Virus record (IMG/VR): IMGVR_UViG_2974506819_000001
Coordinates: 98,789-162,788 of that record
Origin: a virus
Lineage: Duplodnaviria > Heunggongvirae > Uroviricota > Caudoviricetes
Reading direction: 5' to 3' (one strand)
DNA length: 64,000 bases
The notes below the pieces were generated by a model. It made no database searches, was not told the DNA's origin, and saw nothing but the letters and a program-made list of their open reading frames with translations. Shown here piece by piece: positions 25,203 through 30,746 of the stretch; positions within the stretch are counted from its first letter, which is position 1, and every line of letters starts with the position of its first letter. The position numbers and the translations under genes are program-made.

Positions 25203-25637
25203 ATGGGTCTGGGTTACATCGACGTTAAGCTCGATTCCAAGCAAGAAGATGACTTGATTCGGGACTTAACAACTTTAGGGATTAAAGCTCTACCAAAAGG
25301 GAAGTACCACTGTACTGTCATTTATGACAAACGTGAGGAACTTGATAAGCCGCTGTGCGACATCGACCCTGAGCAAGTCTTTGAAGCACACGTCGTGGAG
25401 GTTAAACCACTCGGAGATGCCCTGGTCTTTACTATGACGTCTAAAGATATCTATGATGAATTTAGACGATTGCAGGAAGCCGGATATCAGCACAGTTTCC
25501 CTGAGCTGTTGGTTCACATGTCAATTTGCTACGACTTCAGTGCGTACGACAAGTTGAAGGTGGAACAGTTCATGGGCCGATGGATAGGCCGCAACATTCA
25601 GTTCTCTCGCGAATCGTTACAACCCGTTAAGTATTGA
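25203..25637 (+). CDS. 2H phosphoesterase superfamily protein (LigT/Acb1-like), 144 aa
   Basis: Two H-x-[TS]-x motifs on hydrophobic strands ~70 aa apart: KYHCTVIY and LLVHMSICY; size typical of phage Acb1-type enzymes. Confidence 0.5.
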   Translation: MGLGYIDVKLDSKQEDDLIRDLTTLGIKALPKGKYHCTVIYDKREELDKPLCDIDPEQVFEAHVVEVKPLGDALVFTMTSKDIYDEFRRLQEAGYQHSFPELLVHMSICYDFSAYDKLKVEQFMGRWIGRNIQFSRESLQPVKY

Positions 25638-27479: not shown

Positions 27480-27510
27480 ACTTCGGTTCCCCCTTAGTTT
27501 TACCCCGACT
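27480..27510 (+). terminator. Rho-independent terminator after the highly expressed 345-aa gene
   Basis: 9-bp stem agggggaac / gttccccct with UUCG loop, then tagtttta. Confidence 0.7.
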
Positions 27511-27555
27511 ATTTAAAATTTATTAGATTGACGTTTTTCTTTAAAGGGTTGAATC

Positions 27556-27957
27556 ATGAAAAAGTTTATCGCTCCACTTGTTGCTGTTCTGCTGTCTGCT
27601 TGCGCTACCCAACCGAAGCCTGCGGTAGAAGTTACCTATGAGTGTTCCAACTTCACCATGGGTCGTATTACTTCCCTGACTGAAGCGCCGGCACCGTCAA
27701 AGATTATTCCGGTCAAGCAGGTTGTCGTTCAGAACGATGAAGGTTACTTCATTCCGAAAGGTGGTGCGTTCGAACGTGACCGCTACTACTTCTGGCTCAA
27801 TGAAGATGCCAGCACACAGAAAGCCGTCAGTGGCAAATTGGCCATGACTGAAAAAGATAGCAACTTTGTTATCTATGCTTTCCGTACTCCGTACAACGGC
27901 ACCAACCCGCAGGACGTTGTGGGTTACATGGCGCTGTTGGACTGCGTGAAGAAATAA
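27556..27957 (+). CDS. Lipoprotein (133 aa)
   Basis: Signal peptide with lipobox LLSAC. Confidence 0.6.
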   Translation: MKKFIAPLVAVLLSACATQPKPAVEVTYECSNFTMGRITSLTEAPAPSKIIPVKQVVVQNDEGYFIPKGGAFERDRYYFWLNEDASTQKAVSGKLAMTEKDSNFVIYAFRTPYNGTNPQDVVGYMALLDCVKK

Positions 27958-28241
27958 CGTAGCGGGCTGGGTATCCAGCCCCTATAGAAAAGTGAAAACC
28001 ATTGCCATGGTTTTAACCCAACCGGTAAGAGTCCTTTGGACCGCCTCCTGTTCGAGGCCATTTTTCTATAGTCACCTCGTTAATGCCAACACATCTGATA
28101 CGTAGATGCCTTAGGAATCCTTTCTGATTCCGGGAGAAAAAGGAATTTCTCCTTCTTTTTATTCCGTGGCCTTCCCGTAGTTATCTACGGGAGGGTCCAT
28201 ACTACAACAATCATTTTTATTTTTTGTAAGGAAACCGTTTC

Positions 28242-28877
28242 ATGTCTACTCCTGCCGTTACGTCCATTGCCGAAGCCATCAGTGACGTTCTGTGGCCGGA
28301 CAGTATTCTGATTGACTTTGAATCGTGCAGCCTCCAGCCTGACAGTGCACTACTCAGCTTTGGGGCATTGGCCTTTAACCGCCATCAGGTTGCCAGTGTG
28401 TCGCATTACGCCAACATCCCTGAGATGATGATTAACATCAACCTCGACCTTACTACCCAGTTCCTGCAAGGGTTTGATTTTGATAAAGACACCGCTAAAT
28501 GGTGGCGGGAAAAGAACGGACACAACATCAAAGGGTTGTACATTGATCGTGTGGAACTGATCGACATGGTGACCCAACTGAATACGCTGTTAGCGACGGT
28601 GAAGAAGAACTGCAAAGACGTGGCCTTCTTCTGTCGTCATCCGCATGCTGACTACGTGTGGTTACGTACCGTGTGTGAGCGCTTAGGGGTTCGCAATCCC
28701 ATCAGCTACAACCGCATCTATGATGTGGCGACCTATGTGTTCAGCCGTACTGATAACCTGCGTGGGGTTTATGAACTGGATACGCCGCGCAGCAGTTTCC
28801 ACCATGCGTTCAATGACTGCTACCGGGATGCATTACAGGTTGCTACTGTTAACGAAAGGAAGATACTCGATGTCTAA
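28242..28877 (+). CDS. DEDDh-family 3'-5' exonuclease-like protein (211 aa)
   Basis: Exo I ILIDFES (DxE), Exo II-like HPHADYVWL, Exo III FHHAFNDCYRDA (HxAxxD). Confidence 0.55.
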   Translation: MSTPAVTSIAEAISDVLWPDSILIDFESCSLQPDSALLSFGALAFNRHQVASVSHYANIPEMMININLDLTTQFLQGFDFDKDTAKWWREKNGHNIKGLYIDRVELIDMVTQLNTLLATVKKNCKDVAFFCRHPHADYVWLRTVCERLGVRNPISYNRIYDVATYVFSRTDNLRGVYELDTPRSSFHHAFNDCYRDALQVATVNERKILDV

Positions 28878-29328
28878 GATTGCATACATGACCTATCTGG
28901 TGAATGAGATACCGATTGTGTTTCATTCTGCGCTTATGTCGCTGGCTAAGGAGCTCGTAGCATATGAGCAACAGCTTACGATGGATGTGCTGGGAAAACA
29001 GCGTCACATGGTTCCTGTGGACTCTGTGAAGGACTTCTTTATTGAAGACAGCGTGGTTGTGGTGGCCTTTAATGAGCGGGAAGAGTTACCGGTGGGGTTC
29101 TGTAGCTATTGGGCAGAACCGACCCAGGGTCGGCTGATTATCGACACGGTTTACGTTGCTCCTGCTTACCGTCAACAAGGCATTGCCAGGGCCATGTTAG
29201 CAGGACCCCTGGACATGGGGTTCTCACTTATTGACATTCACGCCATGGCGAATAACCCCGCAGCGTTAAAACTGTATGCGTCATTAGGATTTAAACCCTA
29301 TATTACTACGATGACGAAAGTAAATTAA
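28870..29328 (+). CDS. GNAT-family N-acetyltransferase (152 aa)
   Basis: ATG 28870 with SD aaggaag, overlapping upstream stop by 8 nt (ATGTCTAA); motif A YRQQGIARAML; ORF-track N-terminal extension rejected. Confidence 0.65.
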   Translation: MSKIAYMTYLVNEIPIVFHSALMSLAKELVAYEQQLTMDVLGKQRHMVPVDSVKDFFIEDSVVVVAFNEREELPVGFCSYWAEPTQGRLIIDTVYVAPAYRQQGIARAMLAGPLDMGFSLIDIHAMANNPAALKLYASLGFKPYITTMTKVN

Positions 29329-29354
29329 TCTTTTCATTTAAGGAGACATTCCAC

Positions 29355-30356
29355 ATGTCAAGCTTAGAACAAATGTTTGATAAAGCCATGAACGAACATA
29401 CTGCTTCGTTTAATTCAAACCTAAAAACCATTAATGCCAAAGGGTGGGTAAACGATTGGGTTAACCGCCACAACGGCAAAGTTCCAATTAACTTTATCCC
29501 TTACGAAGAATTTCGTGCTCACCTAACTTCATTCTTTAAACCCGGCCACGGTCACGATGAAGCCGGTGCTGATGTTGTTGGGTTAACACTGTTTCAACAT
29601 TTGATGTACAACTTGACCAAAGTGGATATCCATGTCGAAGAAACCGTTATTGTGGAGTTAATGAATGACACCACCTTCGATAAAGATGAAGCAAAAATAC
29701 CCACAGAAGTATTAAAGCGGCTCCCCTACTGGTCGGTGCACATTCCTATCACCAGAAGCTTTAATGAAGAGGTAGACGATCCGAACGCCAATTATTATAA
29801 GTTTCTCGAGGTGTACGTCAGCCGCATTAACATCGATAATGACGACGCGTTATTAATTGACATCAATGCGATGTACAAAGATAAAATTCTGCAACACACC
29901 AGAGTGATATCATTAAATTCCCCTACTATACGGGAGGGGTTAGAACGTCACGCCGACATGAATGACCGGCTGGATATAAACAAACACGGTGATATTTTTG
30001 ACTTTACCTTACGTCAAGTGTTTCCGGTTATTTTGTATGTGTGTTCTCAGCAAAAACAAAAGGACATTGGTAGTTCCCCCCTGACCGGGTACAGTATCAA
30101 ACGAAAAGGGAAGAACTTTGTTTTAAAAGCAGCCCCTAAAGTCAAAGTGATTGAATATGGACAAGAGCTAAAAGAACAGCTTGAACGTTTCCATCAATTG
30201 CTAAAACAAGAGCGTGACTTTAAAGGCCGTATTCCCCATATTCGTAAAGCGCACTGGCACGGTTACTGGATAGGACCTCGTGTTGGTGAACGTGATTACA
30301 TCTATCATTGGATTCCGCCAGTCATTGTGTCGGGTTCTGAAGCAGAAATTAAGTAA
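29355..30356 (+). CDS. Hypothetical protein (333 aa)
   Basis: ATG with strong SD aaggagac. Confidence 0.55.
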   Translation: MSSLEQMFDKAMNEHTASFNSNLKTINAKGWVNDWVNRHNGKVPINFIPYEEFRAHLTSFFKPGHGHDEAGADVVGLTLFQHLMYNLTKVDIHVEETVIVELMNDTTFDKDEAKIPTEVLKRLPYWSVHIPITRSFNEEVDDPNANYYKFLEVYVSRINIDNDDALLIDINAMYKDKILQHTRVISLNSPTIREGLERHADMNDRLDINKHGDIFDFTLRQVFPVILYVCSQQKQKDIGSSPLTGYSIKRKGKNFVLKAAPKVKVIEYGQELKEQLERFHQLLKQERDFKGRIPHIRKAHWHGYWIGPRVGERDYIYHWIPPVIVSGSEAEIK

Positions 30357-30374
30357 CCTTATTTGGAGAGTGTT

Positions 30375-30746
30375 ATGGCAACACGTATTTTTGCAGGTAG
30401 CATTGATTTAGTCACGGTGTCGTTAAACGAACGTCTGCAGCCCATGTTAAAGGGTCAGGTTATTGACTGGTTTAGCTACACCAAAGAATCAGGCTCTCAA
30501 GTTGAGTACGTCTGGGATGGCCCGGCTGTGGTGACCATTTGGGATTTGATTGTTTCAGCCAAACCCAACATTGGTAGTGGTGACGATGATGACGGGTTTA
30601 TTCTCACCGAAGAAGAGGTAAAGGGATTCATTGCGGATGGTCTGGAGCAAACCACCGGGTTTGTTCGTAATAAGTTCATCAAGCTGGAATCGTTGGTGGG
30701 TCGCTTTGATTTTGACAAGCACTGCCTGGTCTTCTTCTTTTCTTAA
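30375..30746 (+). CDS. Hypothetical protein (123 aa)
   Basis: ATG 30375 with SD ggagag (ORF-track 30363 is TTG). Confidence 0.5.
   Translation: MATRIFAGSIDLVTVSLNERLQPMLKGQVIDWFSYTKESGSQVEYVWDGPAVVTIWDLIVSAKPNIGSGDDDDGFILTEEEVKGFIADGLEQTTGFVRNKFIKLESLVGRFDFDKHCLVFFFS

What the first reader, a model, noticed from the sequence alone, without database searches (positions are those of the whole stretch)
28242..29328. DEDDh 3'-5' exonuclease translationally coupled to a GNAT acetyltransferase
The exonuclease gene carries Exo I DFE, Exo II-like HADYVWL and Exo III HHAFND motifs, an Orn/DnaQ/DexA-like arrangement. Its last 8 nt overlap the start of a GNAT acetyltransferase gene (ATGTCTAA; SD AAGGAAG lies inside the nuclease gene), implying co-expression in fixed stoichiometry. 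Small DEDDh nucleases can degrade short oligonucleotides and linear nucleotide second messengers (Orn degrades pGpG and nanoRNA). GNATs can acetylate proteins, aminoacyl-tRNAs or nucleotide-like small molecules. As a pair they could be a host-takeover or anti-signalling module rather than simple DNA metabolism. The unit sits just after a ~280-nt structured noncoding region.
Basis: partly seen in the sequence, partly recalled or inferred. Interest (0 to 1): 0.55.

Follow-up and report, generated by a model that had tools for sequence, protein, structure and literature searches.

The report
DexA-like exonuclease plus orphan acetyltransferase
In the jumbo Erwinia phage RisingSun, an ordinary T4 DexA-type DNA-trimming exonuclease gene overlaps by 8 bases a small acetyltransferase gene found only in this phage lineage; both genes are real and were already annotated, nothing shows that they work together, and the more unusual features are the conserved structured non-coding element just upstream and the swappable counter-defence gene slot just downstream.

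Summary
The window is Erwinia phage vB_EamM_RisingSun (235 kb, a relative of nucleus-forming jumbo phages). The finding is gp124 ("putative exonuclease") plus gp125 ("acetyltransferase").

**Observation: confirmed.** The three DEDDh motifs, the 8-nt ATGTCTAA overlap, the internal AAGGAAG Shine-Dalgarno and the 284-nt structured upstream gap are all present.

**gp124** belongs to the T4 DexA family (Pfam PF16473). A profile of its subfamily matches the T4 DexA structure 8KEL at E=1.6e-25, and D25/E27/D137/H187/D192 are invariant.

**gp125** is a genuine GNAT with no assignable subfamily. It is known from only seven protein clusters, all in this clade.

**The pair** keeps its 8-nt overlap in all six RisingSun-like lineages, although synonymous sites are saturated. 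Exonuclease homologues at 31-40% identity in other jumbo phages have no GNAT neighbour, and no fusions were found. The pair is therefore a lineage-specific juxtaposition, not a conserved module. Ten of 60 same-strand gene pairs in the window overlap.

**Anti-signalling role:** no direct evidence. The neighbourhood does carry an Acb1 homologue (gp120), an AcrVA2/FinQ homologue (gp126, annotated as "mycothiosynthase") and a hypervariable cassette slot directly after the GNAT.

**Upstream gap:** it holds a conserved, covarying ~110-nt structured element with no Rfam match.

The parts
28242..28877 (+). gp124, a DexA-family DEDDh 3'-5' exonuclease (211 aa). Exo I IDFES at 28311-28325, Exo II HADYVWL at 28644-28664, Exo III HHAFND at 28800-28817.
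   Evidence: PF16473, 3.9e-13; D25/E27/D137/H187/D192 invariant; T4 DexA 8KEL, E=1.6e-25; T4 DexA is itself PF16473; hhalign 99.4%; dN/dS 0.016-0.069.
28870..29328 (+). gp125, a small GNAT N-acetyltransferase (152 aa). The acetyl-CoA motif R101-Q-Q-G104-I-A106 is at 29170-29187; Y136 is invariant.
   Evidence: PF00583, 6e-13; invariant motif; AF2 pLDDT 82.5; only generic GNAT fold matches; family limited to 7 clusters in this clade; dN/dS 0.057-0.33.
28870..28877 (+). 8-nt overlap ATGTCTAA: the GNAT start codon lies inside the last codons of the exonuclease gene, whose stop is at 28875-28877.
   Evidence: The same 8-nt overlap (ATG[TC]CT + TAA/TAG/TGA) is present in six lineages.
28856..28862 (+). 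Shine-Dalgarno AAGGAAG for the GNAT, 7 nt upstream of the ATG and inside the exonuclease coding sequence.
   Evidence: The region is purine-rich in all relatives, and no conserved structure masks it.
27958..28241 (+). 284-nt structured intergenic region between gp123 and gp124.
   Evidence: largest gap; MFE -102 kcal/mol, z=-6.85; conserved in relatives.
27964..28071 (+). Conserved structured element: hairpin H0 (27964-27981) followed by a four-way junction closed by a 13-bp helix P1 (27982-27994 with 28059-28071). The junction encloses three hairpins with invariant stems and variable loops.
   Evidence: 99.6% of cells paired; 5 of 33 pairs with compensatory change; slid controls 31-55% paired; no Rfam family; single copy; absent from other phage records; 70-84% identity, against 10-45% in the adjacent linker.
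28132..28163 (+). Intrinsic-terminator-like hairpin (GGGAGAAA...TTTCTCCT) plus a T-run, preceded by hairpin 28114-28131.
   Evidence: compensatory changes in the stem across relatives (columns 206-228).
28169..28199 (+). Conserved hairpin (GGCCTTCCCGTAG/CTACGGGAGGGTCC) between the terminator and the gp124 ribosome-binding site.
   Evidence: columns 244-271, several compensatory pairs; also present in L017.
29355..30356 (+). Context: gp126, an AcrVA2/FinQ-family protein annotated as 'putative mycothiosynthase'. It occupies a variable cassette slot directly after the GNAT.
   Evidence: PDB 7CI1 AcrVA2, E=8.3e-12; PF26125 in relatives; PHIRKAH matches the H286/R288/H291 spacing reported in bioRxiv 10.1101/2022.11.29.518452; slot content differs between lineages.
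25203..25637 (+). Context: gp120, an Acb1 (anti-CBASS 2H-phosphoesterase) family protein annotated as 'RNA ligase'.
   Evidence: PF23474, 2.4e-13, full length; PDB Acb1, 0.0025; HCT and HMS motifs.
27556..27957 (+). Context: gp123, a Cor-like lipoprotein (signal peptide plus lipobox LLSAC).
   Evidence: phrog_1119, 9.4e-12.

Best explanation
gp124 is a metal-dependent DEDDh 3'-5' exonuclease of the T4 DexA family. It most likely removes nucleotides from free 3'-OH ends of single-stranded or broken DNA. In infection that would mean turning cut host DNA into mononucleotides and/or resecting ends during recombination and homing, as DexA does in T4. It looks like an inherited gene of this group of jumbo phages. 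gp125 is an acetyl-CoA-dependent GNAT that was added next to it at the base of the RisingSun-like lineage. It is transcribed on the same message, and its ATG lies 5 nt before the exonuclease stop, so terminating ribosomes can re-initiate; it also has its own accessible SD. Its acceptor is unknown. Because it evolves fast, exists only in this clade and borders a counter-defence cassette slot, my guess is that it acetylates a host protein or small amine as an accessory host-takeover function, independently of the exonuclease. Shown here: family membership of both proteins, intact catalytic and cofactor motifs, purifying selection, and conservation of the overlap within the clade but not beyond it. 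Inferred: DNA as substrate, a salvage/recombination role, coupling, and independence of the two activities.
For: gp124 is in PF16473. T4 DexA falls in the same Pfam family. The gp124 subfamily profile matches DexA structure 8KEL over its full length at E=1.6e-25, with hhalign probability 99.4% (8KEL is T4 DexA per PMC12153337). The catalytic D-E-D-H-D residues are invariant. [quoted passage not shown] The closest exonuclease homologues (31-40% identity) are all in 231-257 kb jumbo phages, and one lies three genes from a thymidylate-synthase-like ORF (by eye, not tested). RisingSun has ligase, RNase H, DHFR and a DSB-repair gene in the same gene run. GNAT: Pfam match, R-x-x-G-x-A motif and a confident fold. 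Only 7 clusters exist, all in this clade. It has diverged to 42-50% amino-acid identity between the deeper lineages, where the exonuclease keeps 68-80%. There is no GNAT beside distant exonuclease homologues and no fusions. Overlaps are common in this genome, 10 of 60 pairs.
Against: There is no biochemical or expression data for either protein. Neither was seen in the published lysate proteome (PMC6034870), which is uninformative for non-virion proteins. gp124 shares only ~22% identity with DexA, and the Pfam family also contains an exoribonuclease (Rv2179c), so an RNA substrate is not excluded. The AF2 model of gp124 failed (pLDDT 42.9), so the fold was not checked. The strict retention of the pair and of the 8-nt overlap in six lineages with saturated synonymous sites would also fit a functional link. 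The surrounding genes (Acb1, AcrVA2-like, variable slot) are counter-defence rather than DNA-metabolism genes.
Confidence: 0.6

Rival explanations
1. The pair is a counter-defence or anti-signalling module. The exonuclease would destroy linear oligonucleotide signals or nucleic-acid components of a defence system, and the GNAT would inactivate a host immune protein by acetylation. Both would be expressed from one message together with the downstream anti-defence cassette.
For: The pair sits in an accessory block. An Acb1 homologue lies four genes upstream. An AcrVA2/FinQ homologue lies immediately downstream, in a slot whose content changes between near-identical phages. The GNAT is clade-restricted and fast-evolving. 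No terminator is predicted between gp124 and 32451. A GNAT anti-CRISPR (AcrVA5) is a known precedent (own knowledge). The pair and its overlap are retained in six lineages.
Against: Neither protein resembles a known anti-defence protein. No AcrVA5 appears among PDB sequence hits or the top 50 fold hits. The exonuclease is a DexA-type enzyme with homologues in other jumbo phages in unrelated contexts. DEDDh enzymes need a free 3'-OH and cannot open cyclic nucleotides. Acb1 products carry 3'-phosphates (own knowledge), so a relay from Acb1 to this exonuclease is unlikely. Guilt by association is the only support.
Confidence: 0.15
2. gp124 is an exoribonuclease, like Rv2179c or RNase T. It would trim 3' ends of RNA (tRNA, sRNA, mRNA fragments, nanoRNA) rather than DNA.
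For: The Pfam family is named after the M. tuberculosis exoribonuclease Rv2179c. Homologues in Klebsiella phages are annotated 'RNase T-like'. Weak profile matches to RNase T were seen (E ~2e-3).
Against: The subfamily profile matches T4 DexA about 20 orders of magnitude better than RNase T. It does not retrieve any chain labelled Rv2179c at E<=0.1; whether such a chain is in the PDB copy was not checked. DexA is characterised on DNA (PMC12153337).
Confidence: 0.15
3. The GNAT controls the exonuclease, for example by acetylating it or a shared nucleic-acid-binding partner to restrain a potentially toxic nuclease. That would explain why the two are kept translationally linked.
For: The overlap is strictly retained. 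T4 DexA is toxic when overexpressed (PMC12153337).
Against: Distant exonuclease homologues do without a GNAT. There are no fusions. The GNAT evolves much faster than its supposed partner. No interaction data exist.
Confidence: 0.05

Closest known systems
Bacteriophage T4 DexA (exonuclease A; PDB 8KEL; Pfam PF16473)
   Same: Same Pfam family. Full-length profile match (E=1.6e-25; hhalign 99.4%). Same DEDDh residues, including H-x4-D. Similar size (211 vs 227 aa). Encoded by a large lytic myovirus.
   Different: Only ~22% identity. gp124 lacks the DexA insertion between Exo II and Exo III (gaps). Quaternary structure and any base-modification preference are unknown. T4 dexA has no GNAT neighbour (own knowledge).
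'RNase T-like' exonucleases of Klebsiella jumbo phages Miami and KPN8 and their relatives
   Same: These are the closest phage homologues outside the clade (31% identity over 87% of the protein), in phages that share many genes with RisingSun.
   Different: They are not followed by a GNAT, and they lack both the long structured leader and the AcrVA2-like neighbour.
Generic small GNATs (RimI, AAC(3)-I, NatD-type) and GNATs of other Erwinia jumbo phages (PhiEaH1, RAY, ChrisDB)
   Same: GNAT fold, acetyl-CoA motif and ~150 aa size.
   Different: All NCBIfam equivalog scores are far below cut-off (RimI 22.5 vs 86.4 bits). TM-scores are only 0.4-0.6 to PDB entries and <=0.72 to viral models. There is a long single N-terminal helix. 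None of those phage GNATs sits next to an exonuclease.
AcrVA5 (GNAT anti-CRISPR that acetylates Cas12a)
   Same: A small phage/MGE GNAT found in an anti-defence neighbourhood. Here the GNAT lies next to an AcrVA2 homologue.
   Different: No specific sequence or fold similarity was detected. I am not aware of Cas12a in Erwinia (own knowledge). The resemblance is contextual only.
Oligoribonuclease Orn / NrnC
   Same: DEDDh chemistry.
   Different: No Orn or PF00929 match for gp124. It belongs to a different family within the superfamily.

Membership tests
DEDDh (DnaQ-like) 3'-5' exonuclease superfamily | Exo I D-x-E, Exo II D, and Exo III H-x4-D, all present | tested here: met
   D25/E27, D137 and H187/D192 are invariant in 20 homologues.
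DexA / Rv2179c-like family (Pfam PF16473) | Score above the Pfam gathering threshold over the whole domain | tested here: met
   49.9 bits against a cut-off of 27, profile positions 2-174 of 177. T4 DexA itself scores 79.5 bits in the same family.
DexA / Rv2179c-like family (Pfam PF16473) | Full-length homology to the characterised member T4 DexA | tested here: met
   hmmsearch of the subfamily profile against PDB 8KEL gives E=1.6e-25. hhalign gives 99.4% probability over 175 columns.
DexA / Rv2179c-like family (Pfam PF16473) | RNase H-like DEDD fold in three dimensions | tested here: inconclusive
   The AF2 model from a 5-sequence alignment failed (mean pLDDT 42.9), so no fold search was run.
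DexA / Rv2179c-like family (Pfam PF16473) | 3'-5' exonuclease activity on ssDNA; dimer/tetramer assembly | not testable with these tools
   Needs purified protein.
Oligoribonuclease (Orn) / RNase T family (PF00929) | Sequence membership | tested here: not met
   No PF00929 hit at E<=1. RNase T is matched only at E ~2e-3 by the profile, and no Orn chain appears.
GNAT superfamily | Pfam Acetyltransf_1 above threshold, plus the R/Q-x-x-G-x-G/A acetyl-CoA motif | tested here: met
   49.5 bits against a cut-off of 20.7. R101-Q-Q-G104-I-A106 is invariant.
GNAT superfamily | GNAT fold | tested here: met
   AF2 pLDDT 82.5. Foldseek probability 1.00 to many GNAT structures, although TM-scores are only 0.4-0.6.
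Named GNAT subfamilies (RimI, AAC(3)-I, MshD mycothiol synthase, EctA) | NCBIfam equivalog cut-off | tested here: not met
   RimI 22.5 vs 86.4 bits; MshD 15 vs 163; AAC(3)-I 13.7 vs 200.
Translationally coupled gene pair | Stop/start overlap with an upstream SD, conserved among relatives | tested here: met
   An 8-nt overlap in six lineages.
Translationally coupled gene pair | Downstream initiation depends on upstream translation (SD masked by structure, or measured coupling) | tested here: not met
   No conserved structure over the SD/ATG. Actual coupling needs reporter assays.
Conserved two-gene functional module | Co-occurrence or fusion beyond one narrow clade | tested here: not met
   Distant exonuclease homologues lack a GNAT neighbour. 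None of the 10 longest homologues is fused to a GNAT. The GNAT family is confined to the clade.
Anti-defence gene neighbourhood | Known anti-defence families adjacent, with variable gene content between close relatives | tested here: met
   Acb1, an AcrVA2 homologue, and a cassette slot that differs among RisingSun, Joad, L006, L008, L010 and L011. This describes the context, not the function of the pair.
Any described RNA family (Rfam 15), for the upstream element | Covariance-model match | tested here: not met
   No hit at gathering score in the window. Only E>3 noise in 27900-28300. No tRNA or tmRNA.

The most novel reading that the evidence does not exclude
The structured leader, the exonuclease-GNAT pair and the swappable downstream cassette together form one regulated counter-defence operon of RisingSun-like nucleus-forming phages. 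In this reading the ~110-nt four-way-junction RNA followed by a terminator is a new cis-regulatory element (riboswitch- or attenuator-like). The GNAT disables a host immune protein by acetylation, and the DexA-like nuclease removes a DNA- or oligonucleotide-based immune component.
Probability: 0.1. Interest if true: 0.7.

Novelty: new member of a known kind. Interest (0 to 1): 0.3.

Why it matters
The pair itself matters little. It is a divergent DexA-type exonuclease beside an unassignable GNAT, both already annotated as such in GenBank, with no evidence that they act together.

The neighbourhood matters more. It corrects two public annotations: "RNA ligase" is an Acb1 homologue, and "mycothiosynthase" is an AcrVA2/FinQ homologue. 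It defines a precise cassette slot where near-identical jumbo phages swap accessory genes, which is a good place to look for new counter-defence genes. It also reveals a single-copy, strongly conserved, covarying structured element of unknown function that matches no Rfam family.

If the GNAT or the leader proves to be part of a counter-defence operon, this would be a tractable entry point for studying cytoplasmic counter-defence in a nucleus-forming phage.

Tried and rejected
- **GNAT fold searches.** Searches against PDB and BFVD gave only generic GNAT matches, so no substrate class can be assigned.
- **Searches for the pair or the exonuclease subfamily elsewhere.**
  - IMG/VR gave one distant locus without a GNAT.
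  - GTDB representative genomes gave nothing.
  - A first attempt with a 20-sequence alignment was too divergent for pattern design.
- **Pattern and blastn searches for the upstream RNA element.**
  - IMG/VR gave 0 hits.
  - Metagenomes gave one chance hit in a GC-rich coding region (by eye), plus one contig near-identical to RisingSun over the region read.
  - The 50,697 phage records returned only RisingSun and Joad.
- **ATAMTACA as a promoter motif.** This conserved block before the gp124 RBS is not enriched in the window.
- **Riboswitch reading of the leader.** A riboswitch-style anti-terminator pairing between the P1 3' strand and the terminator 5' arm exists in RisingSun. It is not conserved in L007, so I rejected it as a conserved mechanism (by eye).
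- **Minus-strand 45-aa ORF at 27924..28061.** I rejected it as coding because relatives carry indels that are not multiples of 3.
- **MITE-like reading of the 13-bp inverted repeat.** I rejected it because the element is single-copy, present in every lineage at the same site, and its arms covary.
- **Exonuclease-GNAT fusion check.** Negative.
Full report
**Source of the window.** Bases 27500-30500 are 100% identical to Erwinia phage vB_EamM_RisingSun (NC_042018.1, 235,108 bp; window position = record position - 98,788) and 96% identical to its sibling Joad. RisingSun is a distant relative of phiKZ-like jumbo phages and encodes a tubulin-like protein (PMC6034870). Enterobacter phages described as closely related to RisingSun fall in the Chimalliviridae and form a phage nucleus (bioRxiv 10.1101/2024.10.29.620934). 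The finding corresponds to gp124 ("putative exonuclease") and gp125 ("acetyltransferase") of the public annotation.

**Observation.**
- The exonuclease ORF is 28242..28877 (211 aa). The GNAT ORF runs from ATG 28870 to 29328 (152 aa).
- IDFES, HADYVWL and HHAFND supply D25/E27, D137 and H187-x4-D192. These five residues are the only fully invariant positions besides M1 and G77 in an alignment of 20 homologues down to 22% identity.
- Pfam places gp124 in PF16473 (E=3.9e-13) and gp125 in PF00583 (E=6e-13).
- The overlap ATGTCTAA is at 28870-28877 and the AAGGAAG at 28856-28862.
- RefSeq starts gp125 at TTG 28840. That codon is GTA or GTC in two relatives, while the ATG is invariant, so the ATG is the real start.
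- The upstream gap is 284 nt, the largest of 60 same-strand intergenic distances in the first 50 kb of the window. It is far more stable than shuffled sequence (z=-6.85).

**What the exonuclease is.**
- A single-sequence search of PDB only hinted at 8KEL (E=0.05).
- A profile of the gp124 subfamily matches 8KEL/8KEN over the full length at E=1.6e-25. The next hits (DnaQ, PolC exonuclease, RNase T, ExoX) are at E>=1e-6, and no chain labelled Rv2179c is retrieved.
- 8KEL is T4 DexA (PMC12153337). T4 DexA falls in PF16473, and hhalign gives 99.4% probability over 175 columns at 22% identity.
- DexA is a 3'-5' exonuclease that prefers ssDNA. Its documented roles are host-DNA scavenging and resection during intron homing (PMC12153337).
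- An exhaustive HMMER scan of 1.84 billion representative proteins found only 244 clusters at E<=1e-3 and 14 at E<=1e-10, so gp124 sits in a sparse branch.
- Its nearest relatives outside the clade (31-40% identity) are all in jumbo phages of 231-257 kb: Klebsiella phages Miami, KPN8, phiKp_32 and YC1, Stenotrophomonas phage BUCTxx100, Raoultella phage VB_ZK_P1, and one IMG/VR contig.
- The attempt to confirm the fold failed. AF2 from five close sequences gave pLDDT 42.9.

**What the acetyltransferase is.**
- gp125 has the R101-Q-Q-G104-I-A106 acetyl-CoA motif and an invariant Y136. Its model is reasonably confident (pLDDT 82.5).
- Structure matches are generic: AAC(3)-I, RimI, NatD and SSAT at TM 0.4-0.6. 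Among viral models the best are GNATs of other Erwinia jumbo phages (PhiEaH1, RAY) at TM <=0.72.
- All NCBIfam equivalogs are far below cut-off, so no acceptor substrate can be assigned.
- A profile search of 5.8 billion proteins found the family in only seven clusters, all in RisingSun-like contigs. The next hit is a generic GNAT at E=1.7e-5.

**Is the pair a unit?**
- Within the clade, yes, physically. Six lineages keep exonuclease then GNAT with exactly 8 nt of overlap (ATG[T/C]CT + TAA/TAG/TGA). They are RisingSun/Joad, a Salmonella-assembly contig, and four metagenomic lineages with exonuclease identity down to 62%.
- Synonymous sites between these lineages are saturated (pS 0.67-0.89). 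Both genes are under purifying selection: dN/dS 0.016-0.069 for the exonuclease and 0.057-0.33 for the GNAT. Between the deeper lineages the GNAT has diverged much further (42-50% against 68-80% amino-acid identity).
- Beyond the clade, no. In Miami, KPN8 and the IMG/VR contig the exonuclease is followed by unrelated small ORFs with no GNAT signal. None of the 10 longest family members is fused to a GNAT. GNATs of other Erwinia jumbo phages are not next to an exonuclease.
- Overlaps are routine in this genome (10 of 60 pairs), and no conserved RNA structure hides the GNAT SD.
- The overlap therefore supports co-transcription and allows termination-reinitiation. It does not establish obligatory coupling, fixed stoichiometry or a shared function.
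- The simplest history is an ancestral DexA-like gene with a GNAT inserted behind it once, at the base of the lineage.

**Neighbourhood.** The pair lies in a long plus-strand run that mixes DNA-metabolism genes with accessory genes. The DNA-metabolism genes are a DSB-repair protein, NAD-ligase, RNase H and DHFR. Three accessory genes are informative.
- gp120, annotated "RNA ligase", is an Acb1-family 2H phosphoesterase. It scores PF23474 at 2.4e-13 over the full length and carries HCT and HMS motifs.
- gp123 is a Cor-like lipoprotein.
- gp126, annotated "putative mycothiosynthase", is an AcrVA2/FinQ homologue (PDB 7CI1, E=8.3e-12). It keeps the H-x-R-x-x-H spacing that is functionally important in AcrVA2.

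The position of gp126 is a cassette slot, and its content differs between relatives.

| Lineage | Content of the slot after the GNAT |
|---|---|
| RisingSun, L007, L010 | AcrVA2-like gene |
| Joad | Unrelated 162-aa ORF behind the same leader and start context |
| L008 | 34-aa ORF |
| L006, L011 | Empty |

L010 and L011 encode identical exonuclease proteins yet differ in this slot. No terminator is predicted between gp124 and 32451, so the exonuclease, the GNAT and the cassette are probably one transcript. By established knowledge, DEDDh enzymes need a free 3'-OH and cannot open cyclic nucleotides.

**The upstream non-coding region.** All six lineages keep a gap of ~260-285 nt with the same architecture.
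- Directly after the gp123 stop comes hairpin H0 (27964-27981).
- Next is a four-way junction closed by a 13-bp helix (27982-27994 with 28059-28071). It encloses three hairpins whose stems are invariant and whose loops vary in length and sequence.
- A covariance model built from this element finds it in every lineage, at 75 bits in the most divergent one.
- On the eight-sequence alignment, 99.6% of cells are paired and 5 of 33 pairs show compensatory double changes, against 31-55% paired and no compensatory changes when the partners are slid. That alignment was fitted to the model, there are only six independent lineages, and covariation is confined to H0 and P1.
- The element keeps 70-84% identity where the adjacent linker keeps 10-45%.
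- After the element come a variable linker, a hairpin, an intrinsic-terminator-like stem with compensatory changes and a T-run (28132-28163), another covarying hairpin (28169-28199), and the gp124 RBS.
- Nothing in Rfam 15 matches, and there is no tRNA.
- The element is single-copy in RisingSun and absent from 50,697 other phage records, from IMG/VR and from the metagenome collection, apart from one contig near-identical to RisingSun over the region read.
- I cannot tell whether it is the 3' UTR of gp123, a small RNA or a leader for gp124. An anti-terminator pairing that looks plausible in RisingSun is not conserved in L007.

**Verdict.** The best reading (confidence 0.6) is a DexA-type DNA 3'-5' exonuclease, plus a lineage-specific co-expressed GNAT of unknown acceptor, whose adjacency reflects history and genome compaction rather than a demonstrated joint mechanism. 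Both are new members of known kinds and were already annotated. Interest is low to moderate (0.3). The more notable features lie next to the pair: the accessory-gene cassette slot, the two annotation corrections and the unexplained conserved structured element.

Noticed in passing
window 27964-28071 (also L002 4461-4576, L006 3737-3858, L007 3739-3858, L008 3108-3223, L010 3741-3863, L017 42-162): A single-copy, strongly conserved ~110-nt structured element: a hairpin plus a four-way junction closed by a 13-bp helix. Five compensatory pairs, no Rfam match, no counterpart outside RisingSun-like phages. Function unknown (3' UTR, sRNA or leader).
   Followed up: yes
window 28114-28199: Hairpin, then an intrinsic-terminator-like stem with T-run (28132-28163), then a further hairpin (28169-28199). 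All three are kept by compensatory changes in relatives. A terminator only ~80 nt before the gp124 start implies either a promoter in 28164-28241 or regulated read-through.
   Followed up: partly
window 29355-30356: gp126 is annotated 'putative mycothiosynthase' but is an AcrVA2/FinQ-family protein (PDB 7CI1, E=8.3e-12). It retains the H-x-R-x-x-H motif (PHIRKAH).
   Followed up: yes
window 29329-30374; L002 5829-6352; L008 4460-4602; L006 5088-5099; L011 4248-4256: The position right after the GNAT is a cassette slot. It holds an AcrVA2-like gene (RisingSun, L007, L010), an unrelated 162-aa ORF with no Pfam or PDB match (Joad, which carries the same product name in GenBank), a 34-aa ORF (L008), or nothing (L006, L011). 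L010 and L011 have identical exonuclease proteins yet differ here.
   Followed up: partly
window 25203-25637: gp120 is annotated 'RNA ligase' (and 'structural protein' in Joad) but is an Acb1 anti-CBASS family 2H phosphoesterase (PF23474, 2.4e-13) with both H-x-T/S motifs.
   Followed up: yes
window 27556-27957: gp123 is a lipoprotein with a Cor-like superinfection-exclusion domain (phrog_1119, 9.4e-12; lipobox LLSAC). This is unexpected in a lytic jumbo phage, and it is conserved in all relatives just upstream of the structured element.
   Followed up: no
window 28840 vs 28870: The RefSeq start of gp125 (TTG 28840, a 38-nt overlap) is probably wrong. The ATG at 28870 with its SD is conserved in all lineages; the TTG is not.
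   Followed up: yes
L002 1989-2921 (Joad): Joad carries an HNH endonuclease gene between the homologues of RisingSun gp121 and gp122; RisingSun lacks it. A homing endonuclease three genes from a DexA-like exonuclease recalls DexA's role in homing.
   Followed up: no
L011 5589-7799: One relative carries a NadR-like gene (AAA_28 / CTP_transf_like) and a PnuC-type NMN transporter gene a few genes downstream of the pair. This suggests NAD-salvage accessory genes in the same variable block.
   Followed up: no
window 27924-28061, minus strand: A 45-aa ORF overlaps the structured element. Relatives carry indels there that are not multiples of three, so it is not coding.
   Followed up: yes
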